From Candidatus Micrarchaeota archaeon (GTDB taxonomy: Archaea > Micrarchaeota > Micrarchaeia > Norongarragalinales > UBA97): a DNA stretch of 39,256 bases. A program made the position numbers and the translations under genes. The notes beneath the pieces are model-generated. The model had not been told where the DNA came from and did no database searches. It saw only the letters and a list, made by a program, of their open reading frames with translations. Positions 9,599 through 26,497 of the stretch are shown here, piece by piece (the stretch's first letter is position 1; every line of letters starts with the position of its first letter). The stretch spans positions 1-39,256 of the forward strand of contig JAJXUZ010000002.1 of assembly GCA_021782355.1 (NCBI GenBank). Reading direction: 5' to 3'.

Positions 9599-10510
9599 AT
9601 GAAAATCGGAATTATCGGTTTAGGGAAAATGGGCGGATTGCTTGCTCTCAATTTAATTGATAAGAAAATTAATGTGGTAGGTTATAATCGCAGTCCTCAG
9701 GATACTAAACTCCTAGCAAAAAAAGGTCTTATCCCCTCCTATTCTTATTCTGAATTTATAGAGAAGTTAGATTCAACAAAAATAATTTGGCTAATGGTTC
9801 CAGCCGGTCAAGCAGTTGATTCCGTAATTGATGATTTATTGCCTTATTTGAAAAAAGGAGATTATGTTATTGATGGAGGAAATTCCAATTATCTTGACTC
9901 AATTAGAAGATATTCAATGCTAAAGAAAAAGTCAATTAATTTCATCGATTGCGGCACAAGCGGTGGTTTAGAGGGTGCAAGGAACGGTGCTTGCTTAACA
10001 ATTGGTGGAGATTATTCTTCCTTTAAAAAGTTAGAATTTCTTTTCAAATCAGCTGCTTCTAAAAACGGTTATTTATATTGTGGAAAAAGTGGTGCAGGAC
10101 ATTATGTGAAAACAGTACATAATGGAATCGAGTATGCTATGTTGGAAGCATATGCAGAAGGATTTGAAATTCTTTCAAAATCAGATTATGGATTTGATTT
10201 GTCTAAAATTTCAGACACCTGGTCTTCAAGTTCAGTAATTAGGTCCTGGTTGACTGAACTTGCAACAAGGGCATTCAAAAAAGATCCTAAACTTTCAAAA
10301 ATTTCTCCTATCGTTGGTGGAGGAGAAACTGGACTTTGGACTATTGACCAAGCCAAAGCCCTCAAACTATCCGCTCCAATCATTCAGCTATCGATTGATA
10401 GAAGAAAGAAAACAAGTGAAACAAAACCATTTTCTGGTCGTGTGATAAATGCATTAAGGCACGAATTCGGTGGACATCCAGTCGATATAGTTTCTAAAAA
10501 TAAGAAGTGA
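9599..10510 (+). CDS. gnd: 6-phosphogluconate dehydrogenase, short (about 300 aa) decarboxylating type
   Basis: N-terminal Rossmann motif IGLGKMGG, DGGNS, and the GHYVKTVHNGIEYAMLEAYAEG core typical of Gnd/YqeC-type enzymes. A GGGGGA SD-like element lies 7 nt upstream of the ATG. Confidence 0.85.
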   Translation: MKIGIIGLGKMGGLLALNLIDKKINVVGYNRSPQDTKLLAKKGLIPSYSYSEFIEKLDSTKIIWLMVPAGQAVDSVIDDLLPYLKKGDYVIDGGNSNYLDSIRRYSMLKKKSINFIDCGTSGGLEGARNGACLTIGGDYSSFKKLEFLFKSAASKNGYLYCGKSGAGHYVKTVHNGIEYAMLEAYAEGFEILSKSDYGFDLSKISDTWSSSSVIRSWLTELATRAFKKDPKLSKISPIVGGGETGLWTIDQAKALKLSAPIIQLSIDRRKKTSETKPFSGRVINALRHEFGGHPVDIVSKNKK

Positions 10511-11163
10511 AAATTACGATGTTCAAAATAAGTAAAATAATCGACATTTCTTTGCCTTTACAAGAGAATATGGTAATTTATCCTGGCAATCCTGAGTTTT
10601 CATTGGAGTTTATAAAAAAAATTCCAGAATTTACTTCAACCGTTTCAAAACTATCTATAGGAAGTCATAGCGGAACACACGTAGATGCACCCAAGCACGT
10701 TGATGAAAATGGTAAACCAATTAGTTTTACTGATATTTCAAAATTAATCGGTCCTGCAATTGTAATTGATTGTACTGAAGTTGATTTCGGCAATGGAATA
10801 ACTAAGGAAATTTTACAAACAAAGCCGATTAAACCCAATATGATAATTTTACTTAAAACTAAGAATTCAAAAAGAGGTTATTCAACCTTTTACTCCGATT
10901 TCATCTTTGTAGATTCTACCGGTGCCGATTATTTATTAGAAAAAAAAGTTCGTTCAATCGGTGTGGATTATTTAGGAATACAAAAATATCATTCCGGAAA
11001 TAACATTGTTCATAAAGCATTTTTAGATAAAGAAATCCCAATTATAGAGGGATTAAATTTATCTGCAGCAAGTCAGGGCACTTATTTTCTGAGTTGTTTA
11101 CCATTAAATGTTATTAATGCCGAGGCATCAATGGCAAGAGCAGTATTAATTGAAGGTGGGTAA
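10507..11163 (+). CDS. Putative cyclase-family metal hydrolase (kynurenine formamidase-like)
   Basis: HSGTHVDAPKH signature of the putative-cyclase/arylformamidase family. The GTG start overlaps the gnd stop by 4 nt; an alternative ATG is at 10519. Confidence 0.7.
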   Translation: MKITMFKISKIIDISLPLQENMVIYPGNPEFSLEFIKKIPEFTSTVSKLSIGSHSGTHVDAPKHVDENGKPISFTDISKLIGPAIVIDCTEVDFGNGITKEILQTKPIKPNMIILLKTKNSKRGYSTFYSDFIFVDSTGADYLLEKKVRSIGVDYLGIQKYHSGNNIVHKAFLDKEIPIIEGLNLSAASQGTYFLSCLPLNVINAEASMARAVLIEGG

Positions 11164-11243
11164 TTTTAAGTAGCTAAAACAACATCGAAGAAGTTTTGCC
11201 AAATTATATAAGATTTGTCCAAAATCAATTCTAATTAATTCAT

Positions 11244-12962
11244 ATGAGTAATTCAAAAACTTATCTTATCACCAGTGCTTTACCTTACGTTAATGGCGTA
11301 AAACATATTGGAAATGTAGCTGGTAGCTTATTGCCCGCAGATGTTTTTGCTCGTTATCAAAGATTAAACGGCTCAAAAGTAGTATTTGTCTGTGGTACTG
11401 ATGATCACGGAACTACAACCGAAATTGCAGCACTCAAAGAAGGAATAAGTTCAAAAGAATATAGTGACAAATATCACGAAATTCAAAGAGAGATTTATTC
11501 AAAATGGAATTTGTCATTTGACATATTTTCCAGGACTTCTTCAATTGAAAACCATCACACTACTTGTGAAATGTTTCAATTAATGTATTCAAATGGTTTG
11601 ATAAGTCAATCTTCTTTGAAGATTCCTTATTGTTTAGTAGACCAGAGATTCATTGCAGACCGTTACATTGAAGGTACCTGTCCAAACTGCTCGTTTGATG
11701 GAGCACGAGGAGACCAATGTGAAAAATGTGGAAAATTACTAGACCCAATTGATTTGATTAAACCTCGTTGTAATATTTGTAAAAAAGATAAGATTGAATT
11801 TAGGGAAAGCAAACACTTGTTTTTAGATTTGTTCAAACTTTCTGATAAATTAAAGGAATGGTTGACAAAACAAACTGATTGGCCAGTTAATGCAAGAAAT
11901 TTTGCTCTTCAATGGATTGAAGGCGGACTTAAACCAAGATGCATTACTAGGGATTTAGATTGGGGAGTAAAAGTTCCTCTTGCTGGTTTTGAAAATAAGG
12001 TGTTTTATGTTTGGTTTGATGCACCAATTGGTTATATCTCGTTTACTAAGCAATGGGCGTTAAAAGATTCAAATAACAGGAACTGGCAAGAATTTTGGAA
12101 AAACGACCAAGCACAAATTATCCATTTTATAGGAAAAGATAACATTGCCTTTCATAGCGTAATTTGGCCCGCAATGATTATGGCAAGCGGTTATTGCAAC
12201 TTACCAACAAGAGTTCAAGCCTATGAGTTCTTGAATTTAGAAGGAAAGAAGTTTTCAACAAGTAGAAATTGGGGAATTGATGCAAAAGAAGCACTCGATT
12301 GGTTCGATGCTGATTATTGGCGATACTATTTGATTTCAATTTTACCCGAAAGGTCGGATGCTAACTTTTCTTGGAAAGAGTTTCAATCAGCTGCGAACAG
12401 TGATTTAGCCGATGTTTATGGTAATTTAATTCATCGTTGCTTAACTTTTACACACTCTAAGTTTGGCGGATTGGTGCCCAAACCAACCGAACAATCGCAA
12501 TGGACAGAAAATCAAATAAAATTCTATGAACAATTTCAAATTACTTGCAAAAATGTAAAGGAATTAATGAATAATTACAAACTTCAAGAAGCCCTTAGAG
12601 TAATTATGGACTTTGCACGACAAGCAAACAAATTCTTTTCCGACTCCGCTCCTTGGAAACTTGAGTGTGATTCCAATATTGCAAACGATGCTTCAACTAC
12701 AATTTTTCTTACTGTAAATGCTTGCCGTTCAATAGCTCTTTTACTTTATCCTTTTGTTCCTTCTAGTAGCATTAAGGCATTCAAATACCTTAACGGACAA
12801 AACATTGAACTTTGCAGTATTGATGAATCTGCCAGTTTAATGGTAGAAAGCGGAACTAAAATAGCTGAAAAAGAAGTATTAACCCCACTATTTACCAAGA
12901 TTCTTGATGAAAAAATAGAAATGTATTCTACCTTGGTAAGTTCAAGAAGTAAATCAATTTAA
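11244..12962 (+). CDS. metG: Methionyl-tRNA synthetase (no C-terminal tRNA-binding appendix)
   Basis: ALPYVNGVKHIGN (HIGH-class motif), the zinc knuckles CPNC...CEKCG, and KFSTSR (KMSKS equivalent). Confidence 0.95.
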   Translation: MSNSKTYLITSALPYVNGVKHIGNVAGSLLPADVFARYQRLNGSKVVFVCGTDDHGTTTEIAALKEGISSKEYSDKYHEIQREIYSKWNLSFDIFSRTSSIENHHTTCEMFQLMYSNGLISQSSLKIPYCLVDQRFIADRYIEGTCPNCSFDGARGDQCEKCGKLLDPIDLIKPRCNICKKDKIEFRESKHLFLDLFKLSDKLKEWLTKQTDWPVNARNFALQWIEGGLKPRCITRDLDWGVKVPLAGFENKVFYVWFDAPIGYISFTKQWALKDSNNRNWQEFWKNDQAQIIHFIGKDNIAFHSVIWPAMIMASGYCNLPTRVQAYEFLNLEGKKFSTSRNWGIDAKEALDWFDADYWRYYLISILPERSDANFSWKEFQSAANSDLADVYGNLIHRCLTFTHSKFGGLVPKPTEQSQWTENQIKFYEQFQITCKNVKELMNNYKLQEALRVIMDFARQANKFFSDSAPWKLECDSNIANDASTTIFLTVNACRSIALLLYPFVPSSSIKAFKYLNGQNIELCSIDESASLMVESGTKIAEKEVLTPLFTKILDEKIEMYSTLVSSRSKSI

Positions 12963-14945: not shown

Positions 14946-16313
14946 TTATTTCTTTTGTAAAATAGTTTTTGTCTGATTCTTATATAGTTCAACAGCTGGT
15001 TGGTCAAAAGGATTAACGTTCATTAAATGGCCAAGCATAATTATTTGAATCATTTGAAGTTGCATTAAAAATCCTAAATTTTCTTCATTTAATTCTTGTA
15101 GTTCTATTGTAACAAATGGAATATGGGACTCTTTCATTGCATTTTTAGTACCATTCAAAATTGCATCCATAAGTTGTACAATCGACTTGTTTGAAACATT
15201 AGGTACAATTTCTTCAATTTCATTATCTTTTTTTAGTATTATTTTTTCCTTCTGTTTTACCGAAATAATTGCAAAAAGTTTGTCTTTGGGTCCACCAAAA
15301 TATAATTGTCCGATAGAATGTAAATCAGTTGACCCAATTGAAACAGTGGGAGTCATTCCAGCATTCAATTTTACATTACCAGAGGCACTAAATTGTTTTC
15401 CTATACTTTCTGCCATTAATTGTCTGTGCCATTTGCCCAATGCCTCTAAACTTGTATCAAAAATAAATTCATCTAAGATTTTCTTTCCCATTCGATTTTG
15501 AAGATGATAAATCGAAGCCAATTTGACAGCGGGATTATTTAATCCATAATTATTGGTGCAAATTTCAACTGCCTTTCTTGCACCTTTAAGTAATTGACTA
15601 CAATCTACCTCTGCCCATAATAAAGGAAACAATCCAACGTTTGAAAAAACAGAGTATCTTCCTCCCACTTTTTTCGGAATATTTAGTATTGAATATTTTC
15701 TATTTAATGCAAGTTTTTCAAGTGGAGATGATTTATCTGTTGTAATTACTACGTATTCTGGATTTTTAGAAACATAGTTCCTAAATTTCTCTAAAAAGAA
15801 CATTAGATTTGCTATTGTTTCTGTAGTAGAACCGGATTTGGATATTCCGTTGAAAATAACTTTCTCCTTCGCTTTCAATTTAGTTTCAATTATTCGTGCT
15901 ATTTCAATTAATTTATTTTGGTCAACTGTATCGGCAAATAAAACCAACTTCTTTTTTGATTCAATATTTTTTAGAAGACCGAATTTTCCTTCAAGTACTG
16001 CCATTGTACCTAAATTCGAACCACCAATTCCTATCAAAACCAAAGTTGTTGCATCATTAAGTTTATTTGAGAGTTTTTTAGATTCGTTCAAACAATCATT
16101 ATTGTAACTGAGAACCACTGATGCATAATCAGAAGAGTAATCTTGTTTTTTGAAAGTTTCCTTTATTTTGTTAACAATTGGATTTAGTTTTGCACATTCT
16201 TGAGATATTCGTTGAGTTGTAACATTAGAACTATCCGTGCCAATTGAAAGTTGCTGAAAATTAAAATTAGTATTATCTGCTTTGTTTAGTGGTTTCATTA
16301 AAGAAGAAATCAA
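14946..16313 (-). CDS. pgi: Glucose-6-phosphate isomerase
   Basis: GIGGSNLG and SKSGSTTET motifs of the PGI/SIS family, with size appropriate for the short PGI type. Confidence 0.85.
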   Translation of the reverse strand: MISSLMKPLNKADNTNFNFQQLSIGTDSSNVTTQRISQECAKLNPIVNKIKETFKKQDYSSDYASVVLSYNNDCLNESKKLSNKLNDATTLVLIGIGGSNLGTMAVLEGKFGLLKNIESKKKLVLFADTVDQNKLIEIARIIETKLKAKEKVIFNGISKSGSTTETIANLMFFLEKFRNYVSKNPEYVVITTDKSSPLEKLALNRKYSILNIPKKVGGRYSVFSNVGLFPLLWAEVDCSQLLKGARKAVEICTNNYGLNNPAVKLASIYHLQNRMGKKILDEFIFDTSLEALGKWHRQLMAESIGKQFSASGNVKLNAGMTPTVSIGSTDLHSIGQLYFGGPKDKLFAIISVKQKEKIILKKDNEIEEIVPNVSNKSIVQLMDAILNGTKNAMKESHIPFVTIELQELNEENLGFLMQLQMIQIIMLGHLMNVNPFDQPAVELYKNQTKTILQKK

Positions 16314-16914: not shown

Positions 16915-16921
16915 ATCTAAG

Positions 16922-17016
16922 CGGGCCCGGTGGGATTCGAACCCACGACATCCTGCTCTCTTCTTGTTGAAAACAACTAGAAGGCAGGCGCTCTGTCCAG
17001 ACTGAGCTACGGGCCC
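16922..17016 (-). tRNA. tRNA-Arg (anticodon TCT) with a 20-nt canonical 37/38 intron
   Basis: Reverse complement: GGGCCCG-TA-GCTC AGTCTGGACA GAGC-G-CCTGC CTTCTA-[GTTGTTTTCAACAAGAAGAG]-A GCAGG-ATGTC-GTGGG TTCGAAT CCCAC-CGGGCCC-G. The mature length is 75 nt. Confidence 0.85.
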
Positions 17017-17075: not shown

Positions 17076-17192
17076 GGGGCTGTGGGGTAGTCTGGCATCC
17101 TGTCAGCTTCGGGAGCTGGCGACCTGCGTTCGAAATGATTTTCTAATATTTATTTAGTTTTATTAGGCTTCAAGAAAATCGCAGCAGCCCCA
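17076..17192 (+). tRNA. tRNA-Pro (anticodon CGG) with a 44-nt non-canonical intron inside the T-loop (about position 59/60)
   Basis: GGGGCTG-TG-GGGT AGTCTGGCA TCCT-G-TCAGC TTCGGGA GCTGG-CGAC-CTGCG TTCGAA-[44 nt]-T CGCAG-CAGCCCC-A. The intron ends pair as GATTTTCT/AGAAAATC (8 bp) across the junctions. The mature length is 73 nt. Confidence 0.75.
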
Positions 17193-17304: not shown

Positions 17305-18627
17305 ATGAAAAAAATAATTTCTTCAATTATTCTATTAGTAACTGCGCTTTCAATTTTTTCTTTTGTAGGTGCCGATGTAATGATGCCGGTAGGAGTGCCA
17401 GCAAATTCATTAGGTTCGCAAGGTATGATGCATTCAAACGGTTCAATGGGTATTTATGCAACCGGCGTGTTGCACGCTCCTCTTCCCGGTTCGTTACCAA
17501 CTAGTCAATTTTCTAACGGAAGCATAAACAGTTCATATGGAGAGTTTCAAGGAGAAATCAGACCTTATTTAGTACCAATGATGCAAGGCGTCCTTAACAG
17601 AGAAATGGAAATATCTCAAAGAGAAATGTCATTACACGCAAGAATTTCTGAAGATTTCAATCAACAAGCATCGTTAAATTCAAGATTAATGTCATTTAGA
17701 CAAATGGGTGCAGACTCATTAAATTCAACAGGAAGAGAAGAATATTCTCAAGTAGTTTTTGATTCAATGCAAGCATTTTTCGATCAAGCATATTCTACTG
17801 CATTATCTTATTCAAATAGTTCCGATTCAGTAATTGCAGCAAATGCCACAAATCTTATGCAAGTAATTGTTGCTGAAAATAGCTCAATAACTGTAAACTC
17901 GACCGGTCAAGAAAAAATGGATGCATTTGAAAACGTCACTGTTGCAGTCCAACAATTCAAACAAAATATTCGAGACTATGAATTACAAGTAAGATTAGGT
18001 TCAGCATTAAACGATTCTTATAATCAAGTAATCAACTTCCAAAAAGCATTAAGTGCATTAAGCCAAGCTGGATTTAATGTAACCAATGCTCAAGTTTCAG
18101 CAAATTATCTTTTAGCAGATATTCAATATGCTCAAAACTTGTCAACTTCATCAAACTCTTCAGTAAGAGTAAGTCAAGGATTCTTATTCGCAATTAAACT
18201 TGGCTTAGATTATGAAAAACAAGCTTTAGTTCAAGCAGTATCGAATTCAGTTGTAACCCCAATTCCAACATTCTTAACCGAGTCCCCATCTACTTTAGAA
18301 AGTTCATTTAATGTAGTTGGTTCAGTTGAATCAGCATTTTCGAAAGATATGTCAAATATAATGACCGAACAAATGAATATTGAAGATTCAATGATGAATT
18401 CAAACGTTACTGAAGATAACTCATCCTCAGCTTTAAGTGATGTTTCAAATTCAGACAATTCAACCATTTCAGATAATGGAAATTCAACTGATAATATGAA
18501 TTCATCCGCTTCGGACAATTCCTCAGTTGATGCAAACTTAACTTCAAACGACTCTGTAAGTTCAACCGATTCAAACAGTTCAATTAACGTAAATATTTCA
18601 ACATTAACAAACTCATCCGACAATTAA
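17305..18627 (+). CDS. Secreted, predicted helical N/Q/S-rich protein with an acidic S/N/D low-complexity tail; paralog of the 24959-26497 product
   Basis: N-terminal signal-like segment MKKIISSIILLVTALSIFSFVGA and an AGGTG SD upstream. No catalytic motif recognised. It shares repeat-unit motifs with the 512-aa protein: LMQVIVAENSSITV vs LMNQVISDANSSIVQ, and VSANYLLADIQYAQNLS vs VSVSNYQTDYQSTQSELS. Confidence 0.8.
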   Translation: MKKIISSIILLVTALSIFSFVGADVMMPVGVPANSLGSQGMMHSNGSMGIYATGVLHAPLPGSLPTSQFSNGSINSSYGEFQGEIRPYLVPMMQGVLNREMEISQREMSLHARISEDFNQQASLNSRLMSFRQMGADSLNSTGREEYSQVVFDSMQAFFDQAYSTALSYSNSSDSVIAANATNLMQVIVAENSSITVNSTGQEKMDAFENVTVAVQQFKQNIRDYELQVRLGSALNDSYNQVINFQKALSALSQAGFNVTNAQVSANYLLADIQYAQNLSTSSNSSVRVSQGFLFAIKLGLDYEKQALVQAVSNSVVTPIPTFLTESPSTLESSFNVVGSVESAFSKDMSNIMTEQMNIEDSMMNSNVTEDNSSSALSDVSNSDNSTISDNGNSTDNMNSSASDNSSVDANLTSNDSVSSTDSNSSINVNISTLTNSSDN

Positions 18628-18639
18628 ATTACATAAATA

Positions 18640-18966
18640 ATGGAGAAACCGAACGAAATGAATTTTAATAAAATTTTTCTAGTTGCATTCGCATTTGTTA
18701 CACTTTCAGTAGTTGCTTGCGGATGCCTTAGTAGTTCACCAAACACACAAACAAACACTCAAGTTGGCAATGTTGTAACTACTACTCTTGCCACCAATCA
18801 ACCACAAGTAAATTCAAGTGCAAATTTGACAGTTAATCAAACTGTTGCTCAAACCTTAAATTCATTAAACAATGCATCAGCAAATGTGAATTCAGTCTAT
18901 AATGGAGTAAACGATTCAAATCTTACTGCTCCAAACTTGACTGCTTCAGACTTTAATGTTAGTTAA
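18640..18966 (+). CDS. Small secreted/lipobox-like protein (T/N/S-rich)
   Basis: Hydrophobic leader ending in VVAC-GC, which is lipobox-like. The likely true start is the ATG at 18658 (MNFNKIF...), which has a GGAGA SD 11 nt upstream. It begins 13-31 nt after the preceding gene. Confidence 0.65.
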   Translation: MEKPNEMNFNKIFLVAFAFVTLSVVACGCLSSSPNTQTNTQVGNVVTTTLATNQPQVNSSANLTVNQTVAQTLNSLNNASANVNSVYNGVNDSNLTAPNLTASDFNVS

Positions 18967-19071
18967 ATTCTGTTTTAGTTTTTTTTTGCTTGGTGGCTAT
19001 GGGGGCAATTAAATAGTGTTTGCCTCCTTCAAATCCTTAACTACTATTTTAAACTATTTTAATGGATTTAC

Positions 19072-19144
19072 AGCCCCGTAGTGTAGTGGTCAAGCACGAT
19101 AGGCTCTGGACCTGTAAACGACGGTTCGAATCCGGCCGGGGCTA
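19072..19144 (+). tRNA. tRNA-Gln (anticodon CTG), intron-less
   Basis: AGCCCCG-TA-GTGT AGTGGTCAA GCAC-G-ATAGG CTCTGGA CCTGT-AAAC-GACGG TTCGAAT CCGGC-CGGGGCT-A. Length is 73 nt, with an A1-U72 pair as in archaeal tRNA-Gln. There is one A-G mismatch in the T-stem. Confidence 0.8.
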
Positions 19145-19221
19145 TTATCTTCTTATCTTCATTTCAATTTGTATTCGCGATTTACCTTAAAGATTATTAA
19201 AACCATTGTTCTAATTCTAAA

Positions 19222-22200
19222 ATGATTTATCACATTAAATTTCTAAATAATTTAAAATTATTTTTACTTTTTTTTGTATTGTTTTTTGCAAGTGCCAGTG
19301 CACTTTTTATTAGTCAAAACGCAAGTAATGTATTTTCAAATGGAGCATTTAATTTAACAACTACAAATTATTCTCAAAGTGTTTATGCTCTTTATAATTC
19401 CACTTCATTGACTTACGATGGAAATGGAACTTATTACGGTCCAATGGTGAATTTGTATAATTATACTGGGATGAGCGAGCAGTATTTTCTTAATTCAGTA
19501 TATTGGAATTGGTACGAACCAACTTCTTCATATGTTAATTCAATTACCAATGTAACCTCATTTGTTATAACTCTAAATAATAGTCAAACAACTTCTACTC
19601 CTGCATATTTCCAACAATTATTAACTATCAACAGTTCACAATTTTCAAATTACATAAATGCTAATTGGAGTAATGTTGTATTTTCTACCGGACCACTAGA
19701 TACCGGATTAAACATAACTGCTTGGATTGAATCTGGTAACACGAACACATCTACTTCAACTTATGTTTGGATAGCTGACCCTTATTCAATTGGAGCTTCA
19801 TCAAATCAAACAATTTATATGAACTTTGTAAATTACTCGGTTTTAAGTTCAAACGGACCTACCGGTGAAGCACCCAACCTTTCTCCTTCTTATGGCCAGT
19901 ATGATGATGGAGCTTTAATTTTCTTAAATTACTTTAATTTTAACGGAACCACCATACCTTCTGGAGTATCAGTTGCTTCAGATGCATCAAACGGCACAAT
20001 AGTTTTTAATAATTCAGCAAAAGTTGAAGCAAATAATACCGATGGAACTAACGGAGAATTTCTTTTCATAAATAATACTTATTCTCCTTCTTCTTACATT
20101 ATAGATTCTTTTTTTGAGAATGGAAGTGAAAACACCAACGACAAACTTAATGGATGGGACGAAGTAATTCCAACAAATCAATCAGGTTGGTGGGGTTGGC
20201 CAAAAGGAGTAACTTCTGGTTTTCACAATCAACCCGAAACTGTAACAATATTAAACACTAGTGCAACAACCTATCAAACTTATCAATCTTCAAACGGAGT
20301 AAATCAAGTTATTTCACCTACTGTGGTAAGTACAGATTGGTTCTCACCGACTACCACCTCGGCAATTTTCAATTATTCAATATTTGCAAATTCTTCTACT
20401 GATATTCCTCCAATGATTAATTCTTATCCCGTATTGGGTTATACTAGTAATGGTGCATTTGTTACATTAAGTTGGGCAAGAATGCGTTTAACTCCTCCAA
20501 ATAATGTAATGCCGTTTGTAACCGTATCAACCAATCCAATGAATTCAATTTATGCATCTCTTATTTTGGACTTACCACTTGAAAACGATTTTAGAGATAT
20601 TTCTACCAATAATGTTACTGTAACTCCAAGTTCACCATCTCCTTCATTTCAATCAAATTGTCAAATAGGAAGTTGTGCGACATTTAACGGAGTAAACGAG
20701 TCCCTCTCATTACCTGTTGGTTTTCTGAATAATGATTTACAATTTACTATCTCGATGTGGGTTAAAACCAATTCCTCAGCATTTTCAAATACTCTTGGTG
20801 ATTTTCCAACTTTCTTTGGATTAACTAACGCGGGTTTTGGTACTGGTAGTTTACAATTAGGAATTAACAATAGTTATCTGACAGTTTCAAGTGGATTAAT
20901 GCCCCGCATTAGTTTTTATTATCAAACTAATTCATATCTTGCCGATAATAATTGGCATCAAGTTTTATTTGTTGATAATGGTTCTAATTATAGTTTATAT
21001 TTAGACAATAATCTATCAACCACATTTATTTCAAACATTACCTTTAATTCTAGTACATTTGGTCCATACCTTGGTGCTGATGATAATTTAGGTACTGCTT
21101 CATATTTCTATAATGGTTCAATTGATGAAGTTCATGTTTGGAACCAAGCATTAAATTCAACTGAAATATCTGCACTTTATACGTCTGAAGGTCAAGGTCA
21201 CTTTATTCATAATTTTACTAATGTTACAATTTCTGTAAGGGTAAAACCAGATACGTTTAATGAATCCGGACTTATAGGTTGGTGGGATTTAGGTAATTCA
21301 CTAGCAAATGAAACTGTTTCAAATGAAAGCTTAGATTTAAGCGGTTATAACAATCCATTGTTATTTTATAACTCGCCATCTGTTTCAACAAATGGAATCA
21401 TAGGGAATTCTTTAGAATTCAACGGAACCAATTATTTAGAACCAGAAAAAAACATCAATTTCAATCCATCAATTTCAAACTTTACAATATTGGTATGGGT
21501 TAATCCAAACTCAAGCGGTACTATTCTTTCCAGTCTCGATAATTCGGGCACAGGAGTAACCTATCTTGGAATAGATAATTCGTCTATTTGTGGTGCAGGA
21601 ACAGCGTTTTATACTTCATTAAACGGAACCCCGCTTTGTACTGATTATAACATTACTCCAAATCAATGGTATCAATTAGGTGTTGAAAGAAATGGAAATA
21701 ATATCTTTTTAATTATTAACGGTACGTTTGAGAATATTAGTACTACCACTCCTTCAAGTGATTTAGGTAACTTTATCATTGGTGAAAACAAAACTTTCGG
21801 GCAGGGATTTTCAGGTTATTTAAGCGATTTGATGATTTTTAACCGAAGTCTAAATACTTCATACATCTATCCATTTTATCATAATGGAAATCCAACTAGT
21901 TTGGGTGGTTTAGAATCAAACTGGACAAACTGGACAAAAATAAATTCAGGTCAGAACTTAACCTTAAATGATACTGGATTAGTTCAATATCAAGCTACTT
22001 TTAGAAGTATAAATTCAAATTATTCGGCATTTTTGGATAACGTTTCATTTCAATTTAATTTACTACCTAATCAAACTTATCAAATGCCGATTTATGTTTT
22101 AAATCGTCAATCAACTGCAACAGGTAATAACTATCAACAATTAATTCAATTGAATTTTTCACAATTTACTCCATATCTTAATTCAAATTATGGCAATATC

Positions 22201-24324
22201 CGATTTTGTTTGGATACAAACTGTTCGATTTTATTAAATTCTTGGCTTGAAAATCCCGGTTCAATAAATCAAAACGCAACTATTTGGGTAAATCTTACCG
22301 ATGGTATTAATGGAAATAGTTTTTACCCGATTTACTTTACCATTTTCAATCCGCAATTAAACTTTGATGGTTATTATTGGGGAGAAGCACCCGACTTAAC
22401 CAATCCTTATGGAATTTATGATAATGGTCAAAACGTGTTTGTAAATTATGGCGGAGGCGGAAATAACGTTTGGAATGAATTCTCTTTTGAAGGTGGAAGT
22501 TGGGATTATAATAATGGATATCTGGAGCAAACCTTATCCAGCGGTTCTTATACCGGTGGTCCTGCAGCTTACATCACTTCTACTCAATATGCCGCTAATG
22601 GTAGTTATGTATTGACAGAATCGTTTAATTATAGTGATGCATCAAATGCGAGAGTAGGAATAATTGCTGATGGTACGTATACTGGCAATGATATGTATGC
22701 ATATCGATTTATTGGTGAAACCCACGCAAATTCAAACGGATTTGTAAGTTTTCTTAATGATGAAGTAGCTTGGGTAGCAAATGGAAATTATACCGGTTCT
22801 TCATTAAACACTCCTTATACTCTTAACGTATCAGATAATGGTGGAATTTGGAGTTCTAATCTGTATGCTGGAAGTGATAACGAAACTTCCACTTCAATTG
22901 CCAATTTAACTAATGTTAATTATTCTAGTCCTAACGGGATGTCCGCTACCACTGGTTATGTGGGAATAAGTGCAGCTTATATGGCTAATTCAGTTACTCC
23001 CGTATCTGCAATTCCAATTAATGTAAATTGGTTTTATGTAAGGTTGCTTGCGCCAAATGATACTATGCCTTATCAAGCAGTTAATGTTACTTCATTATCC
23101 ACATCATTAATATCTCCAACTAGTGGCAATGCAAGTGCTTATGGCCAATCTACGAACTTAGTCTTTTCAGTATCTACTCCGGAATTCAACCTAGTCAATG
23201 CATCGCTTTACACAAACTTTACAAATGGTTGGTCAATAAACCAAACAATTTACAATGTGACATTAAATTCAGCTGTTCAAAATCTTAGTTATAATTTCTC
23301 AAACCTTCCTGTTGGCACTTATGTTTGGAACGTATTTGTAAATGATGGCAATTCTTCCACTTGGGCAAATAATGGAAATTATACCTTTACTATAAGTTCC
23401 TCCAATTCAAATTCTACTACTGCTCAAATCAATGGTGTTCCTCAACCACCTTATTGGTATGACCCTTCGTTATACCCACTTTATCCTTCTAATACCCAAG
23501 CACCAGGTGTAGTAACTACTACCACCTTAGTTCCTGTTGCTCCACAAGTTCAAAGTTACACTGGAATAAGCAATATTACTGATTTTGTAAACATTGGATA
23601 CAGTAGAAACTTTAATTATCAATCGTACTTTTCTCCAAATGATACTGGCACACTTAATATTTTAATTTCTGGAAATGGCTCTAAATTAATTGCATTAGAT
23701 AATTCTACTTTGGAAGTAAGTAGTGATGGTGGTTATTCACAAATCAATTACACTATCTTTACGAATAGTCAAACTTTACCCGGTTTATATGTTGCAAACC
23801 TTTCTATTATGAATGTAAAAGGTCGGTTAATTAATTCAATTCCAGTTTACATTGACGTTTTACTTGCTCAACAAAAGTTAATGGATATTTCATTAACTAC
23901 TTTAAGTTCTACTATTAAATCATATTCACCAATTAGCTATTCGCTTGATTTGAAAAATGTCGGACAACAAAGTAAATATGACGTTGATATTCTATTGACT
24001 CTATTAGATTCCAACGGAAATACTGTCCAATCTCAGCAATACACCGTGTCAATGATTAGTGAACTAAATCTTACCAATGAATTTAATATTACAAAAGCAA
24101 TTTCAGATGGAACTTATCAATTAATTGCAAATGCAAGTTATTTCGACCCAGCAACCTCGCAATTCAGATATGCAGAGTCGTCAGTTCAACTTAACAAGCT
24201 AACTCCAAGCAATTTCCTTCTTTCAGAGAATTTTGTAGTTGGTTTGATTATAATCCTTGTAGTGTGTTTAGCAATAGTATTCCGGCCAAAAGACAAAAAA
24301 ATTAAACAGAAACATTTAAATTAG
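19222..24324 (+). CDS. Giant (1700 aa) membrane-anchored surface protein: signal/TM, [DUF2341-like + jelly-roll-like module], 2x LamG (Laminin_G_3-like), a second [DUF2341-like + jelly-roll-like module], Ig-like, CARDB-like, C-terminal TM anchor
   Basis: Uninterrupted 5.1-kb ORF. DUF2341-like stretches are YFQQLLTINSSQFSNYINANWSNVVF...ITAWIES...YVWIAD and NYQQLIQLNFSQFTPYLNSNYGNIRF...NSWLEN...IWVNL. LamG hallmarks are FTISMWVK...WHQVLFV...GSIDEVHVWNQALNSTEISALY and FTILVWVN...WYQLGVE...GYLSDLMIFNRSLN. The C-terminal anchor is FVVGLIIILVVCLAIVF followed by RPKDKKIKQKH. I count about 90 N-x-S/T sequons by hand. An A/T-rich TATA-like element lies about 27 nt upstream and there is no SD, so the mRNA is possibly leaderless. 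Confidence 0.9.
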   Translation: MIYHIKFLNNLKLFLLFFVLFFASASALFISQNASNVFSNGAFNLTTTNYSQSVYALYNSTSLTYDGNGTYYGPMVNLYNYTGMSEQYFLNSVYWNWYEPTSSYVNSITNVTSFVITLNNSQTTSTPAYFQQLLTINSSQFSNYINANWSNVVFSTGPLDTGLNITAWIESGNTNTSTSTYVWIADPYSIGASSNQTIYMNFVNYSVLSSNGPTGEAPNLSPSYGQYDDGALIFLNYFNFNGTTIPSGVSVASDASNGTIVFNNSAKVEANNTDGTNGEFLFINNTYSPSSYIIDSFFENGSENTNDKLNGWDEVIPTNQSGWWGWPKGVTSGFHNQPETVTILNTSATTYQTYQSSNGVNQVISPTVVSTDWFSPTTTSAIFNYSIFANSSTDIPPMINSYPVLGYTSNGAFVTLSWARMRLTPPNNVMPFVTVSTNPMNSIYASLILDLPLENDFRDISTNNVTVTPSSPSPSFQSNCQIGSCATFNGVNESLSLPVGFLNNDLQFTISMWVKTNSSAFSNTLGDFPTFFGLTNAGFGTGSLQLGINNSYLTVSSGLMPRISFYYQTNSYLADNNWHQVLFVDNGSNYSLYLDNNLSTTFISNITFNSSTFGPYLGADDNLGTASYFYNGSIDEVHVWNQALNSTEISALYTSEGQGHFIHNFTNVTISVRVKPDTFNESGLIGWWDLGNSLANETVSNESLDLSGYNNPLLFYNSPSVSTNGIIGNSLEFNGTNYLEPEKNINFNPSISNFTILVWVNPNSSGTILSSLDNSGTGVTYLGIDNSSICGAGTAFYTSLNGTPLCTDYNITPNQWYQLGVERNGNNIFLIINGTFENISTTTPSSDLGNFIIGENKTFGQGFSGYLSDLMIFNRSLNTSYIYPFYHNGNPTSLGGLESNWTNWTKINSGQNLTLNDTGLVQYQATFRSINSNYSAFLDNVSFQFNLLPNQTYQMPIYVLNRQSTATGNNYQQLIQLNFSQFTPYLNSNYGNIRFCLDTNCSILLNSWLENPGSINQNATIWVNLTDGINGNSFYPIYFTIFNPQLNFDGYYWGEAPDLTNPYGIYDNGQNVFVNYGGGGNNVWNEFSFEGGSWDYNNGYLEQTLSSGSYTGGPAAYITSTQYAANGSYVLTESFNYSDASNARVGIIADGTYTGNDMYAYRFIGETHANSNGFVSFLNDEVAWVANGNYTGSSLNTPYTLNVSDNGGIWSSNLYAGSDNETSTSIANLTNVNYSSPNGMSATTGYVGISAAYMANSVTPVSAIPINVNWFYVRLLAPNDTMPYQAVNVTSLSTSLISPTSGNASAYGQSTNLVFSVSTPEFNLVNASLYTNFTNGWSINQTIYNVTLNSAVQNLSYNFSNLPVGTYVWNVFVNDGNSSTWANNGNYTFTISSSNSNSTTAQINGVPQPPYWYDPSLYPLYPSNTQAPGVVTTTTLVPVAPQVQSYTGISNITDFVNIGYSRNFNYQSYFSPNDTGTLNILISGNGSKLIALDNSTLEVSSDGGYSQINYTIFTNSQTLPGLYVANLSIMNVKGRLINSIPVYIDVLLAQQKLMDISLTTLSSTIKSYSPISYSLDLKNVGQQSKYDVDILLTLLDSNGNTVQSQQYTVSMISELNLTNEFNITKAISDGTYQLIANASYFDPATSQFRYAESSVQLNKLTPSNFLLSENFVVGLIIILVVCLAIVFRPKDKKIKQKHLN
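19549..20526 (+). repeat. Protein-level module copy 1 inside the giant ORF (aa ~110-435)
   Basis: Collinear motif matches with copy 2: YFQQLL..SQF..Y.N.N..N..F; GEAPNLSPSYGQYDDGALIFLNY vs GEAPDLTNPYGIYDNGQNVFVNY; WARMRLTPPNNVMP vs WFYVRLLAPNDTMP. Confidence 0.65.
22069..23076 (+). repeat. Protein-level module copy 2 inside the giant ORF (aa ~950-1285)
   Basis: See copy 1. The order of the three anchor motifs and the spacing (about 325-335 aa) are the same. Confidence 0.65.
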
Positions 24325-24399
24325 CAAAAACATTAGTAAAACCTAAACTGTGAACTTATAATAGTAAAACAAACAAATTCATTAGGTGAAATTAAAAAC

Positions 24400-24948
24400 T
24401 TGACAAAATCGTTGCTTAAAATTTCTGCTATTTTGCTTACTGGATTTTTATTATTTGGTTGTTTAGGTTCTTCGTCTTCTACTGGTACAAATAATCAAGT
24501 ATCAAATTCAAATGTCCCAACAACAACTTTATCTGTAATACAAAATACCAATACTTCTTCAAGTAATTCGAGTATTTTTTATTCGAATGTTTTAGTAATC
24601 GATAGCCTTACCCAAGAGCCCGTAATTGGGGCATTGTTAACTTACAATGATTCAGTTTTAGGAACTCAAACAATTTATTCTCAATCTGATGGTTCAGCAA
24701 TTTTACCAATGTCAACTTCAACAGAACAAGTTTCAATTAGTGATTCAGGTTATACCACCCACGTTCAGCAAGTTAGTACATCAAATACTACTATTTTCTT
24801 AACCGAATCATCGTTAAACGACCCATCAATATCCGTTAACGGAAGCAATCAAACTTCAATAAATGATTTAATTGTTGGAAATGATAGTTCGACAAATTAC
24901 TCAAGCGGAGTAAGCGGAATTTCTTCTTCCGACCTTAATACAACTTAA
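24400..24948 (+). CDS. Small lipobox-like secreted protein with a beta-rich CarboxypepD_reg/PEGA-like core
   Basis: Leader MTKSLLKISAILLTGFLLFG-C (lipobox-like). The core VLVIDSLTQEPVIGALLTYNDSVLGTQTIYSQSDGSAILP...ISDSGYTTHVQ resembles carboxypeptidase-regulatory-like folds. The start is TTG with a GGTGA SD about 11 nt upstream. Confidence 0.65.
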   Translation: MTKSLLKISAILLTGFLLFGCLGSSSSTGTNNQVSNSNVPTTTLSVIQNTNTSSSNSSIFYSNVLVIDSLTQEPVIGALLTYNDSVLGTQTIYSQSDGSAILPMSTSTEQVSISDSGYTTHVQQVSTSNTTIFLTESSLNDPSISVNGSNQTSINDLIVGNDSSTNYSSGVSGISSSDLNTT

Positions 24949-24958
24949 GTTTAGAAAT

Positions 24959-26497
24959 TTGGTGATAATGGCGATGAACTTTGATTTTAATAAATTTTCA
25001 ACAATATTTTTAGTTTTTATTCTAAGTGCTTCATTTTTAACCGGGCTTACCAATGCCTTACCAACTTCAAGCAATAATGCTCGAATTAGTTACTTAAATT
25101 GTGTAATCAATTACAATGAGGGCTTGCTTAACACTCTTTCAAAAATCGACCCATCCATAGCCTCAATCAACTCAGCATCATTAAACCAACTTTCAAATGA
25201 CCAGAATCAATTAAACACGCTATTAAATTCAAACGATTCTCAAATTAACTCATTCGTAAAAGGTTCATTACAATCTGATTTACAAAATTCTCGTGGTAAT
25301 TTCAAAAGTTCAATTTCACAATTAAGACAATTATTAATTTCAAAATCATTAAATCGCTCCTTGATGAATATGAGTGTATTAAAATCAGATTATGCAACAT
25401 TAATTCAAAGTAGAAATTCTTGTTTTGCTCAAAGCTATTCTCAAGCAGTATCAGACAGAATCAACTACTATCTACAAGTATTAGTTGCCTATCAGTTAAT
25501 CATATCTAATCACACTAGCCAAACTAACAATTTAACCGCAACAACACTTGACCCAACTTTAATGAACCAAGTAATTTCAGATGCAAATAGTTCAATTGTT
25601 CAACCTATGCAAAATGCATTAACGGCCTTGCAGTCAATGAATTCGACTAATGAAAGTGAATATTATTCGATATTAAACGAATATTCGTTATTTGATTCTG
25701 CAAGTTCATCAAACGAAATGAATTATCATTTTCATTCCAGGTTTATTCTAGCTTATTTACAATCAAGAGCAATTCAATTAACTTCTTTAGCAAATTCAGA
25801 TGGAGTTAGTATGGCTCAATATCAAACTGATTTTGATTCTGCAAATTCTACTTTAAATCAAATAGGTAATTTACAATATTCAAAAGGTCAAGAACAGCAA
25901 TTGTATGAACAATTCAGAACAATTCATTCAGATTTGATAAATGTAAGCACTCAAATATTCTTATCAAGGCATTTAACTACGGTATTAACTCAAAGATATT
26001 CTGATTATTCTGCAATTTTAGCAAACTACTCAGCATTAGTTGCTAAATGGTCAAATACCACTGATTCACTTACAAATTCTACATTAAACGTTTCGGCGTT
26101 AACTGAAGTTCTAAATAATGCAAATCAAACAATTTTAATGCCAATTGAAAACGCAATAGTTTCAAACAATACCCAAAGTATGAAATTAGCCTTACAAGAT
26201 TATTGCTTATATGATTCTTGCCAAGCAAATTCAAGTTCAGTTTACAATTTCCATTTAGCAGCACAATTTGCATTAAATACAGTAAATGCACGATATATGC
26301 AGATTCAATCATTAGCACAAGCGAAAAACGTTAGCGTAAGTAATTATCAAACAGATTATCAATCAACTCAAAGTGAATTAAGCAGTATACTGCCAAATTA
26401 TGATGATGCTCAAACTCAAGCAGTTTTATGGTCAGATATTGGCAAAGTTTCTCACGATGAGTTTCAAATTAGATTGGCTTTGAATAAAGCAGCATAA
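24959..26497 (+). CDS. Secreted, predicted helical N/Q/S-rich protein with an internal tandem duplication; paralog of the 17305-18627 product
   Basis: Signal-like segment FSTIFLVFILSASFLTGLTNA. The probable start is the ATG at 24968 or 24974 rather than the TTG at 24959. It lies 10-25 nt after the preceding gene. No catalytic motif recognised. Confidence 0.8.
   Translation: MVIMAMNFDFNKFSTIFLVFILSASFLTGLTNALPTSSNNARISYLNCVINYNEGLLNTLSKIDPSIASINSASLNQLSNDQNQLNTLLNSNDSQINSFVKGSLQSDLQNSRGNFKSSISQLRQLLISKSLNRSLMNMSVLKSDYATLIQSRNSCFAQSYSQAVSDRINYYLQVLVAYQLIISNHTSQTNNLTATTLDPTLMNQVISDANSSIVQPMQNALTALQSMNSTNESEYYSILNEYSLFDSASSSNEMNYHFHSRFILAYLQSRAIQLTSLANSDGVSMAQYQTDFDSANSTLNQIGNLQYSKGQEQQLYEQFRTIHSDLINVSTQIFLSRHLTTVLTQRYSDYSAILANYSALVAKWSNTTDSLTNSTLNVSALTEVLNNANQTILMPIENAIVSNNTQSMKLALQDYCLYDSCQANSSSVYNFHLAAQFALNTVNARYMQIQSLAQAKNVSVSNYQTDYQSTQSELSSILPNYDDAQTQAVLWSDIGKVSHDEFQIRLALNKAA
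25544..25858 (+). repeat. Internal protein repeat, copy A (aa ~196-300 of the 512-aa protein)
   Basis: TLDPTLMNQVISDANSSIVQPMQNAL...EMNYHFHSRFILAYLQSRAIQLTSLA...VSMAQYQTDFDSANSTLN aligns collinearly with copy B. Confidence 0.7.
26081..26398 (+). repeat. Internal protein repeat, copy B (aa ~375-480 of the 512-aa protein)
   Basis: TLNVSALTEVLNNANQTILMPIENAI...SVYNFHLAAQFALNTVNARYMQIQSLA...VSVSNYQTDYQSTQSELS aligns with copy A. Confidence 0.7.

What the first reader, a model, noticed from the sequence alone, without database searches (positions are those of the whole stretch)
17305..26497. Near-symmetric five-gene secreted/surface module around a giant adhesin-like protein: candidate undescribed cell-surface or host-contact system
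Seen: this is the only non-housekeeping block in the window and every gene is on the + strand. The order is a helical secreted protein (440 aa), a small lipobox-like protein (108 aa), tRNA-Gln, a 1700-aa anchored giant, a small lipobox-like protein (182 aa), and a helical secreted protein (512 aa). Each outer helical gene is 10-30 nt from its small partner, so each pair looks translationally or operonically coupled, and the two outer genes are paralogs. All five products have N-terminal hydrophobic export signals, are extremely N/S/T/Q-rich with dense N-x-S/T sequons, and carry no catalytic motif I recognise. No ATPase, pilin-type signal, sortase or secretion-machine gene is present. Inference: this looks like a dedicated extracellular assembly in which the giant DUF2341/LamG/CARDB protein is the displayed element. 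The lipobox proteins could be membrane tethers and the helical paralogs could be stalk, lattice or chaperone-like partners. In a reduced, probably episymbiotic archaeon the assembly is a plausible host-attachment or S-layer-like apparatus. I know of no described system with this gene arrangement.
Basis: partly seen in the sequence, partly recalled or inferred. Interest (0 to 1): 0.78.

Follow-up and report, generated by a model that had tools for sequence, protein, structure and literature searches.

The report
Unlinked surface-protein genes, not one system
The five genes are real exported, sugar-coated surface proteins of a tiny symbiotic archaeon, but they are three separate units that happen to be neighbours rather than one machine; the one useful lead is that one of them belongs to an undescribed, widespread protein family that almost always travels with a small membrane-anchored partner gene.

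Summary
**Observation.** The ORFs, tRNA-Gln, export signals, N/S/T/Q richness, sequon excess and short pair gaps are all confirmed. The window is from a Micrarchaeota (DPANN) genome.

**Claims that fail:**
- The outer genes are not detectable paralogs (BLASTP E 0.17; hhalign probability ≤1%).
- CARDB is not detected.
- The symmetry is superficial.

**The five-gene system fails its own refutation test:**
- Relatives with 68–83% RpoB identity carry no P1, P2, P4 or P5 homolog upstream of rpoH.
- DUF2341 giants related to P3 sit alone among housekeeping genes.
- P5-family genes elsewhere never sit beside a giant.
- tRNA genes and an oligo-T run split the block.

**Best reading.** This is a variable patch of three surface units: P1+P2, P3, and P4+P5.

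**New lead.**
- P5 is a two-repeat member of an unnamed archaeal family with 261 representatives.
- Its AlphaFold model is all-helical (pLDDT 90.6) and has no PDB or BFVD fold match.
- In 23 of 24 loci the family gene is followed directly by a small N-anchored ORF; the background rate is 1 in 1,120.
- The window is the exception.

The parts
16921..17016 (-). Intron-containing tRNA at the left boundary of the block (context, not part of any surface unit).
   Evidence: ARAGORN; Rfam tRNA, 61.5 bits.
17076..17192 (+). Unannotated tRNA-like gene, probably Pro with anticodon CGG. It has a 43-nt insert (17135-17177) in the T-loop and lies directly upstream of P1.
   Evidence: Read from the sequence. 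With the insert removed, the 74-nt RNA folds into a cloverleaf at -35.5 kcal/mol, z = -2.3. ARAGORN and Rfam both missed it.
17305..18627 (+). P1 (440 aa), an orphan secreted protein. Layout: Sec-type signal (MKK...VGA|D), a G/M/S/P-rich linker (aa 24-78), a conserved core (aa 79-345), then an N/S/D-rich tail. It has no cysteines.
   Evidence: ORF. N-terminal hydrophobic segment and 24 sequons. One homolog only, P0004 at 52% identity. No Pfam, NCBIfam, PHROG or PDB match. Unrelated to the P5 family.
18640..18966 (+). P2 (108 aa; the likely start is ATG 18658, giving 102 aa), a small lipobox protein with a T/N/Q-rich tail. It forms an operon-like pair with P1.
   Evidence: PS51257 lipobox match, with the cysteine conserved in the L003 homolog (VVACGC vs VVASGC). 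The gap to P1 is 12 nt here and 2 nt in L003.
18973..18987 (+). T-runs (TTTT, then nine T) immediately after the P2 stop codon. This is probably the archaeal oligo-T terminator that ends the P1-P2 unit.
   Evidence: Sequence read. Terminator function is inferred from the known role of oligo-T tracts in archaeal termination.
19072..19144 (+). tRNA-Gln(CTG), which separates the P1-P2 unit from P3.
   Evidence: ARAGORN; Rfam, 59 bits.
19222..24324 (+). P3 (1700 aa), a giant surface adhesin-type protein. Domain order: Sec signal, DUF2341-type module 1 with a ConA-like region (aa ~116-440), Laminin_G_3 (aa 492-650), Laminin_G_3 (aa ~735-880), DUF2341-type module 2 (aa ~957-1290), unassigned beta-rich and PT-linker region, C-terminal TM (aa 1671-1689) and a short K-rich cytoplasmic tail.
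   Evidence: Pfam. Internal duplication, E 2e-14. Hydropathy and 91 sequons. Only domain-level homologs exist, mostly DUF2341 giants, covering <=28% of the query.
24400..24948 (+). P4 (182 aa), a lipobox protein (LLFGC, Cys21) with an S/T/N-rich linker and a possible small beta-sandwich (weak CarboxypepD_reg-like hit at aa 66-132). It sits immediately upstream of P5.
   Evidence: PS51257 match. Pfam E 0.006, below threshold. No homolog in any locus fetched apart from L004, a contig identical to the window over the P3-P5 region. GGTGA lies upstream of its TTG start.
24968..26497 (+). P5 (509 aa from ATG 24968; the ORF opens at TTG 24959), a secreted all-alpha protein. It is a two-repeat member of an unnamed archaeal family. 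Repeat 2 keeps the family motif YCLYDSC...NFHLAA; repeat 1 has a degenerate copy (YSLFDSA...YHFHSRF).
   Evidence: Profile search found 261 family representatives. Family HMM E 7e-87. AlphaFold2 with the deep alignment gave pLDDT 90.6 and pTM 0.81. No PDB or BFVD fold match. No Pfam or NCBIfam.

Best explanation
The block is a variable patch of cell-surface genes in a Micrarchaeota (DPANN) genome. It sits between a cluster of tRNA genes and the rpoH-rpoB operon and consists of three independently inherited units.

(1) P1+P2: a lineage-restricted secreted protein co-transcribed with a small lipobox protein.

(2) P3: a Sec-exported, C-terminally membrane-anchored, heavily N-glycosylated multi-domain adhesin of the DUF2341/LamG class. 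It probably projects lectin-like domains from the cell to bind glycans or proteins on a host or substrate.

(3) P4+P5: a lipobox protein co-transcribed with a two-repeat member of an unnamed but widespread archaeal family of secreted all-helical, disulfide-containing proteins.

Inferred mechanism for the pairs: the secreted protein has no anchor of its own. It is held at the outer face of the membrane by the small anchored protein encoded next to it, whose S/T/N/P-rich tail acts as a glycosylated stalk.

Shown: the gene structure, export-signal features, domain content, family membership, and the conservation or absence of each adjacency.

Inferred: surface tethering, glycosylation, adhesion, and that P4 replaces the canonical downstream partner of P5.
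For: - Organism and context: archaeal housekeeping genes flank the block, and the best RpoB'' matches are all Micrarchaeota.
- Three units: tRNA genes lie on both sides of P1-P2, with an oligo-T run after P2. Intergenic spacers of 75-80 nt containing TATA-like A/T boxes precede P3 and P4. GGTGA motifs precede P4 and P5.
- P1-P2 is inherited as a pair: L003 carries a P1 homolog (52% identity) followed 2 nt later by a P2 homolog with the conserved lipobox cysteine.
- P3 is a stand-alone type. It has only domain-level homologs, mostly carrying DUF2341, and these sit among tRNA synthetases, ABC transporters and Nop, or next to another giant.
- P5 family: 261 representatives, 213 of them at E <= 1e-10. 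Nearly invariant residues are C45, C152, Y239-C240-L241, C245, G250, N252 and H254. The model is confident.
- Partner rule: in 23 of 24 non-redundant loci the family gene is followed, at a gap of -17 to +12 nt, by a 64-122 aa ORF with a strong N-terminal anchor and an S/T/P/N-rich tail. The background rate is 1 in 1,120 genes.
- Surface and glycoprotein character: hydropathy, a lipobox rule that matched no control protein, and sequon excess.
Against: - No export, lipidation or glycosylation predictor, and no experimental data, were available. Localisation rests on hydropathy and pattern rules.
- The tether model is untested, since no complex prediction was possible.
- P4 differs from the canonical P5-family partner. 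It sits upstream rather than downstream, has a lipobox rather than a plain TM, and is 182 aa rather than ~90 aa. Its pairing with P5 is seen only in this genome (the window and L004, a contig identical to it over P3-P5), so it could be coincidental.
- The nearest genomes available are distant: RpoB'' <= 83% identity and GC 50-57% against 33% here. Co-inheritance of all five genes within the genus therefore could not be examined.
- The closer relatives (L003, L089) are contigs of only 1.6-1.8 kb.
- The P1 search used the word-indexed tool only, so distant P1 relatives may have been missed.
Confidence: 0.6

Rival explanations
1. All five genes encode one dedicated extracellular assembly: P3 is displayed, P2 and P4 are tethers, and P1 and P5 are stalk, lattice or chaperone partners.
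For: All five genes are adjacent, co-oriented and exported, and they share an unusual composition. Each secreted protein is paired with a small anchored one. Five-gene co-inheritance could not be tested at genus level because no close genome was available.
Against: - There is no co-occurrence in any relative.
- DUF2341 giants occur alone.
- The P5 family occurs in 24 other loci without a giant.
- P1 and P5 are not paralogs.
- A tRNA gene and an oligo-T tract interrupt the block.
Confidence: 0.1
2. The P5-family protein is a released, soluble binding or scavenging factor, for example for a lipid, metal or host molecule. On this view the adjacent small anchored protein has a separate role, such as a receptor or an immunity-like partner, rather than acting as a tether.
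For: - The family members examined show no membrane anchor of their own after the signal peptide.
- There is an invariant Tyr/Asn/His cluster next to a disulfide-closed hairpin, which could be a ligand site.
- A few members give weak, scattered Pfam hits to ligand-binding or surface-binding helical domains (TarH, HsbA).
Against: - All those hits are below threshold and occur in <=4 of 109 members.
- There is no fold match to any binding protein.
- Tight translational coupling to an anchored partner in 23 of 24 loci fits a stoichiometric complex better.
- In L001 the helical protein and its partner share a ~40-aa C-terminal T-rich module, which suggests a common location.
Confidence: 0.15
3. 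The block is a horizontally acquired island, or a remnant of an integrated element, inserted at tRNA genes.
For: It is flanked or interrupted by three tRNA genes. It is absent at the equivalent position in relatives, where the region upstream of rpoH is variable.
Against: - No integrase, transposase or other mobile-element gene lies in or beside the block.
- There are no att-like direct repeats of tRNA ends.
- GC content (0.30-0.35) is close to the rest of the window (0.27-0.38).
- The P5-family motif is not found on viral contigs.
- There are no PHROG hits.
Confidence: 0.08

Closest known systems
DUF2341/LamG giant surface proteins of archaea and ultrasmall bacteria (PilY-like adhesins; MJ1470 family)
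   Same: P3 has two DUF2341-type modules and two Laminin_G_3 domains, a signal peptide and very large size. Most of its best database hits carry PF10102. DUF2341 proteins are interpreted as adhesins in archaeal type IV pilus loci (PMC4858521) and as giant host-interaction proteins in Patescibacteria (PMC11809585).
   Different: No pilin, PilB/PilC-type ATPase or prepilin-type signal is present in the window. P3 carries its own C-terminal TM anchor. There is no full-length ortholog, with at most 28% of the query covered.
Unnamed P5 family: a secreted all-alpha protein with the motif YCLFDGCxNGxNFHLAA, followed by a small N-anchored partner gene
   Same: P5 matches the family profile over its full length (E 7e-87 with my HMM) and has the two-repeat architecture seen in other Micrarchaeota members (P0002, P0020, P0021).
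   Different: The window lacks the canonical downstream partner, and its closest relative L089 probably does too. Only 147 nt separate P5 from rpoH. Instead, a larger lipobox protein (P4) lies upstream. Repeat 1 has lost the second cysteine pair.
Two-component archaeal S-layers with a separate membrane stalk (Sulfolobales SlaA/SlaB; cited from my own knowledge and from the discussion in bioRxiv 10.1101/2021.04.28.441871)
   Same: The logic is the same: an exported glycoprotein without its own anchor is encoded next to a membrane-anchored partner. The Micrarchaeota S-layer paper explicitly raises the possibility of an unidentified second, anchoring subunit.
   Different: There is no sequence or fold relationship. 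SlaB is larger and C-terminally anchored. No S-layer domain occurs in any module protein. Lattice formation was not tested.
Micrarchaeota S-layer protein SLP_Mh (bioRxiv 10.1101/2021.04.28.441871)
   Same: Same phylum. Both are exported and glycosylated, with an N-terminal signal or TM of ambiguous type.
   Different: SLP_Mh is ~101 kDa and carries canonical archaeal S-layer domains, according to the paper. None of the five proteins hits such domains.
Giant multi-domain host-interaction proteins of other DPANN archaea
   Same: These are very large secreted or anchored proteins with LamG-type adhesion domains in an obligate episymbiont.
   Different: P3 is much smaller, and no protease or nuclease domain was detected.

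Membership tests
DUF2341/LamG giant surface adhesins (P3) | DUF2341 domain(s) | tested here: met
   The Pfam PF10102 hit is just below the gathering score (20.9 vs 23.4 bits, E 4.9e-4). However, the two modules (aa 116-237 and 957-1076) are homologous to each other at E 2e-14. They also align at 35-48% identity to proteins that carry PF10102.
DUF2341/LamG giant surface adhesins (P3) | LamG / ConA-like lectin domains | tested here: met
   Laminin_G_3 in two copies (aa 492-650 and ~735-880), 94.1 bits in total against a cut-off of 27.6.
DUF2341/LamG giant surface adhesins (P3) | Exported and surface-retained | tested here: inconclusive
   There is an N-terminal hydrophobic segment with an A-S-A motif and a C-terminal TM followed by a K-rich tail. 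No dedicated predictor or experiment was available.
CARDB-domain proteins (claimed for P3) | Pfam CARDB domain | tested here: not met
   No CARDB hit at E <= 1 in the whole protein or in five fragments. There is no PDB sequence hit for aa 1281-1670.
Unnamed P5 family (secreted all-alpha, Cys/His motif) | Full-length profile match | tested here: met
   E 7e-87 against an HMM of 109 members. The family has 261 representatives.
Unnamed P5 family (secreted all-alpha, Cys/His motif) | Motif Y-C-L-[FY]-[DN]-x-C ... N-[FY]-H-L-A-A plus the two upstream cysteines | tested here: met
   Repeat 2 has YCLYDSCQANSSSVYNFHLAA. C45 and C152 are present in repeat 1, but repeat 1's own motif is degenerate.
Unnamed P5 family (secreted all-alpha, Cys/His motif) | Small N-anchored partner gene immediately downstream | tested here: not met
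   It is present in 23 of 24 other loci. In the window, only 147 nt with no ORF lie before rpoH. The closest relative, L089, has a hairpin plus T-run instead.
   BLASTP E 0.17. hhalign probability 0.6% and 1%. The P1 HMM hits only P1 and its L003 homolog across 1.55 Mb of loci.
Lipoproteins (P2, P4) | Lipobox with invariant Cys after an N-terminal h-region (PROSITE PS51257 rule) | tested here: met
   P2 (Cys21/23 from ATG 18658), P4 (Cys21) and the L003 P2 homolog all match; 0 of 23 control proteins do. Actual lipidation cannot be tested here.
Archaeal S-layer proteins | S-layer N/C domains, or DUF1608/TIGR01567-type domains | tested here: not met
   No such Pfam or NCBIfam hit in any of the five proteins.
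Type IV pilus / archaellum-associated adhesin locus | Class III (prepilin) signal peptides, PilB/FlaI ATPase, PilC/FlaJ membrane protein nearby | tested here: not met
   No such domains occur in the 23 neighbouring proteins scanned. The five N-termini are Sec- or lipobox-type by inspection.
Integrated mobile element at a tRNA gene | Integrase plus att direct repeats derived from a tRNA end | tested here: not met
   No integrase was found. There are no tRNA-derived direct repeats. Composition is similar to the flanks.

The most novel reading that the evidence does not exclude
The P5-type helical protein and its small anchored partner may form a previously undescribed two-component surface structure of Micrarchaeota and other archaea. 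It would be built on a fold with no solved relative, and could serve, for example, as the missing membrane stalk or anchor of the S-layer, or as a host-contact or scavenging device. In this lineage the helical protein would have been duplicated internally, lost its canonical partner and been re-paired with a lipoprotein next to a giant adhesin. P1-P2 would then be an analogous cassette that has diverged beyond recognition.
Probability: 0.3. Interest if true: 0.65.

Novelty: new variant of a known kind. Interest (0 to 1): 0.38.

Why it matters
As posed, the finding does not hold: there is no evidence for a five-gene host-attachment machine. What is present is typical of DPANN archaea, namely fast-evolving, glycosylated surface genes that include a DUF2341/LamG giant.

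The value lies in a by-product. An unnamed family with 261 sequence clusters has a confidently predicted all-helical fold and no solved or viral structural relative. It shows near-obligate gene coupling to a small membrane-anchored protein.

DPANN cell surfaces mediate an obligate symbiosis and are poorly understood. The anchoring of the Micrarchaeota S-layer, for example, is an open question in the literature. A conserved secreted-protein/anchor cassette is therefore a concrete, testable candidate. It would also merit a family definition in Pfam or arCOG.

Tried and rejected
- Paralogy of P1 and P5: BLASTP and two profile-profile comparisons were all negative.
- Homology of P2 and P4: only the lipobox and linker align.
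- Pfam, NCBIfam, PHROGs and PDB sequence searches for P1, P2, P4 and P5: nothing significant.
- Pfam scan of all 109 family members: only scattered sub-threshold helical hits.
- First AlphaFold run on P5 with a 2-sequence alignment: poor (pLDDT 59), replaced by the deep-alignment run.
- Foldseek of the good model against PDB and BFVD: no match (best E 0.24 and 0.48). Only the full two-repeat model could be searched, so a single-repeat match cannot be excluded.
- Viral contigs: no family member found.
- Organism names for the family: they showed only 'Micrarchaeota archaeon' for P0020, and the neighbour-protein lookups gave nothing. Breadth beyond Micrarchaeota therefore rests on archaeal-type neighbours only (r-protein S8e by Pfam; L39e/L31e-like and RtcB-like ORFs recognised by eye).
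- L090: its large anchored upstream neighbour looked like a P3 analogue but reads as a Lon-like S16 peptidase (by eye) and is not a P3 homolog.
- L006 and L008: their 514-553 aa anchored proteins near rpoB are homologous to each other but not to P1 or P5.
- Chou-Fasman-type propensities for P1: the method failed its positive control (P5 scored 13% helix), so only the P+G content and amphipathic-periodicity comparisons carry weak weight.
- Bacterial sigma-70 promoter and intrinsic terminator scan: at or below shuffle expectation, and not applicable to archaea.
- att-repeat search: negative.

Full report
**1. What is in the sequence**

- P1 17305-18627 (440 aa)
- P2 18640-18966 (108 aa)
- P3 19222-24324 (1700 aa)
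- P4 24400-24948 (182 aa)
- P5 24959-26497 (512 aa)

All five are on the + strand. tRNA-Gln(CTG) lies at 19072-19144.

The flanks are archaeal housekeeping genes. Upstream are AlaRS, UppP, G6PD, thymidylate kinase, an SDR, an MFS transporter, a 6PGD-like protein, MetRS, thermosome, PGI and a serine hydrolase. Downstream are rpoH, the split rpoB and rpoA'.

A scan of GTDB species representatives with RpoB'' returned Micrarchaeota almost exclusively. The best match was 83% identity. The window therefore comes from a low-GC (33%) DPANN archaeon whose nearest available relatives are distant and have 50-57% GC.

**2. Checking the descriptive claims**

Claims that hold:
- All five products start with a hydrophobic segment, and P3 also ends with a TM helix and a lysine-rich tail.
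- N+S+T+Q content is 39-51%, against 21% in 23 other window proteins.
- N-x-S/T sequons are 6-13 times denser. For P1 and P3 they are about twice what shuffled sequences of the same composition give.
- P2, P4 and the P2 homolog from another sample satisfy the PROSITE PS51257 lipobox rule. None of 23 control proteins does.
- The pair gaps are short. GGTGA motifs precede P4 and the ATG at 24968, which is the likelier P5 start and the one the public gene call uses.

Claims that fail:
- P1 and P5 are not detectable paralogs. BLASTP gives E 0.17. Profile-profile probability is 0.6% with the shallow alignments and 1% against a 109-member P5 alignment. P1 has no cysteine, while four are nearly invariant in the P5 family.
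- CARDB was not found in P3.
- P2 and P4 share only the lipobox and linker.
- 'Helical' is demonstrated only for P5.

**3. The giant (P3)**

Pfam gives two solid Laminin_G_3 domains and a near-threshold DUF2341 hit. A DUF2341-type module occurs twice (aa 116-237 and 957-1076, E 2e-14).

The 5.8-billion-protein search found no full-length relative. It found only other giants, mostly carrying DUF2341, covering at most 28% of P3.

Their genomic settings are informative:
- P0006 lies between an ABC transporter and Nop.
- P0009 lies between small hypothetical genes and ProRS.
- P0007 lies next to a second giant.

None has helical or lipobox neighbours resembling P1, P2, P4 or P5, and tblastn confirms this. 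The literature already treats DUF2341 proteins as adhesins (PMC4858521; PMC11809585). P3 is therefore a new member of a known class.

**4. The synteny test**

I fetched 10 kb upstream of rpoB from relatives and mapped ORFs in eleven of the closest (68-83% RpoB'' identity). Nine of these had 3-10 kb of upstream DNA. None has a P1, P2, P4 or P5 homolog.

The segment upstream of rpoH is simply variable:
- One relative (L007) has an unrelated 1551-aa He_PIG giant there.
- Another (L006) has a 373-aa LamG protein on the opposite strand.
- Others have enzymes.

The only P1 relative in the databases (52% identity, a 1.6-kb contig) is followed 2 nt later by a P2 homolog with the conserved lipobox cysteine. 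P1-P2 is therefore a unit.

Inside the window that unit is bracketed by tRNA genes and ends with an oligo-T run.

**5. The unexpected part: P5 belongs to a real, unnamed family**

- An exhaustive profile search of 1.84 billion cluster representatives found 261 members, 213 of them at E <= 1e-10. About fourteen are two-repeat proteins of 500-570 aa, and most of the rest are single units of ~310 aa.
- Nearly invariant positions are two cysteines in the helices and the motif Y-C-L-F-D-G-C-x-N-G-x-N-F-H-L-A-A.
- No Pfam, NCBIfam, PHROG or PDB sequence match exists for P5 or for the members tested.
- With the deep alignment, AlphaFold2 gives a confident model (pLDDT 90.6, pTM 0.81). It shows two all-alpha repeats with very long helices and a small hairpin at the motif.
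- Foldseek finds nothing in the PDB (best E 0.24, TM <= 0.22) or in BFVD (best E 0.48).
- One member is annotated as from a Micrarchaeota archaeon, and another lies in a Micrarchaeota MAG.
- Other loci carry archaeal-type neighbours: r-protein S8e by Pfam, and L39e/L31e-like and RtcB-like ORFs recognised by eye.

**6. The family's conserved context**

In 23 of 24 non-redundant loci with at least 200 nt of downstream sequence, the family gene is followed by a small ORF. The gap is -17 to +12 nt and the ORF is 64-122 aa. It has a very hydrophobic N-terminal segment and an S/T/P/N-rich tail. Two of these ORFs were missed by the public gene calls.

The same test applied to 1,120 unrelated genes of at least 200 aa in the other archaeal loci is positive once.

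No giant is adjacent in any of these loci, and no P4-like gene lies upstream.

The single exception is the window itself, where 147 nt without an ORF separate P5 from rpoH. Its closest relative (35% identity, L089) shows a hairpin plus T-run instead of a partner. This low-GC two-repeat sublineage therefore seems to have lost the canonical partner.

P4 may substitute for it, since it is a lipobox protein 19 nt upstream. That is an inference: P4 differs from the canonical partner in position, anchor type and size.

**7. How it most likely works**

All five proteins are exported by Sec and glycosylated.

P3 stands on its own C-terminal helix and presents lectin-type domains. This is adhesion, inferred from the domain class.

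P1 and P5 have no anchor after signal cleavage. Near-obligate, translationally coupled pairing with a small anchored protein across a diverse family argues that the small protein holds the helical one at the membrane, with its low-complexity tail acting as a glycosylated stalk. This is inferred and has not been shown. In one locus the helical protein and its partner even share a ~40-aa C-terminal T-rich module.

What the helical protein does once there is open; a coat, a spacer or a ligand binder are all possible.

**8. Rivals**

- The five-gene assembly is disfavoured by sections 3, 4 and 6 above, but it cannot be excluded within the genus.
- A released binding factor is possible but fits the tight coupling less well.
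- An integrated element is disfavoured. There is no integrase, no att repeats, similar GC, and no viral or PHROG signal.

**9. Verdict**

This is an ordinary DPANN surface-gene patch made of three units.

The worthwhile lead is the unnamed helical-protein/anchor cassette. It is new as a family and as a fold, but its function is unknown.

Overall interest is modest (0.38). It would be higher if the cassette proves to be a general Micrarchaeota surface structure.

Noticed in passing
window 17076-17192 (+): There is an unannotated tRNA-like gene, probably Pro with anticodon CGG, carrying a 43-nt insert (17135-17177) in the T-loop. Both ARAGORN and Rfam missed it. With the insert removed, the sequence folds into a cloverleaf. 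A non-canonical intron position of this kind is typical of some archaea.
   Followed up: partly
window 16921-17016 (-), 7233-7339 (+), 5123-5222 (-): Three further tRNA genes are 95-107 nt long, so they presumably contain introns. ARAGORN could not name the first and missed the other two, which only Rfam found.
   Followed up: no
window 3321-4667, 9599-10510, 14946-16313: Glucose-6-phosphate dehydrogenase, a 6-phosphogluconate-dehydrogenase-like protein and phosphoglucose isomerase lie within 13 kb of each other. These look like oxidative pentose-phosphate genes. From my own knowledge that pathway is uncommon in archaea, so it is notable in a reduced DPANN genome.
   Followed up: no
whole window vs L005-L019: The window has 33% GC. 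Its nearest relatives by RpoB'' (68-83% identity) carry GC values of 50-57% in their isolate names. That is a large compositional shift within one lineage.
   Followed up: no
L001 3788-6123: The P5-family protein P0002 and its downstream partner share a near-identical ~40-aa C-terminal T-rich module (...GHVTTIT..TRTTTI.TQEGTRGTSG.NIT). The partner gene is also tandemly duplicated, giving ORFs of 122 and 95 aa.
   Followed up: partly
L117 ~11620-11950 and L118 ~10950-11190: The small N-anchored partner ORFs downstream of the P5-family genes are absent from the public gene calls. In L117 a minus-strand call sits there instead. The cassette would therefore be under-counted in annotation-based surveys.
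   Followed up: partly
L007 1327-5982; L006 7912-9033: In relatives, the position just upstream of rpoH/rpoB holds other, unrelated secreted proteins: a 1551-aa He_PIG giant and a 373-aa LamG protein. This neighbourhood may be a recurrent site for variable surface genes.
   Followed up: partly
L006 3759-5420 (-) and L008 3040-4584 (-): A 514-553 aa protein with an N-terminal signal and a C-terminal anchor is conserved between two relatives (36% identity, E 5e-98), lying 5-6 kb from rpoB. It has no significant Pfam match and no similarity to P1 or P5.
   Followed up: partly
L090 30-1730: A partial protein of at least 566 aa lies directly upstream of a P5-family cassette. It has what reads by eye as a Lon-type (S16) peptidase motif, a helical region and a C-terminal TM.
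   Followed up: no
window 18231-18623 (-): A 130-aa antisense ORF lies inside the low-complexity tail of P1. It is most likely an artefact of the repetitive N/S/D codons and not a gene.
   Followed up: no
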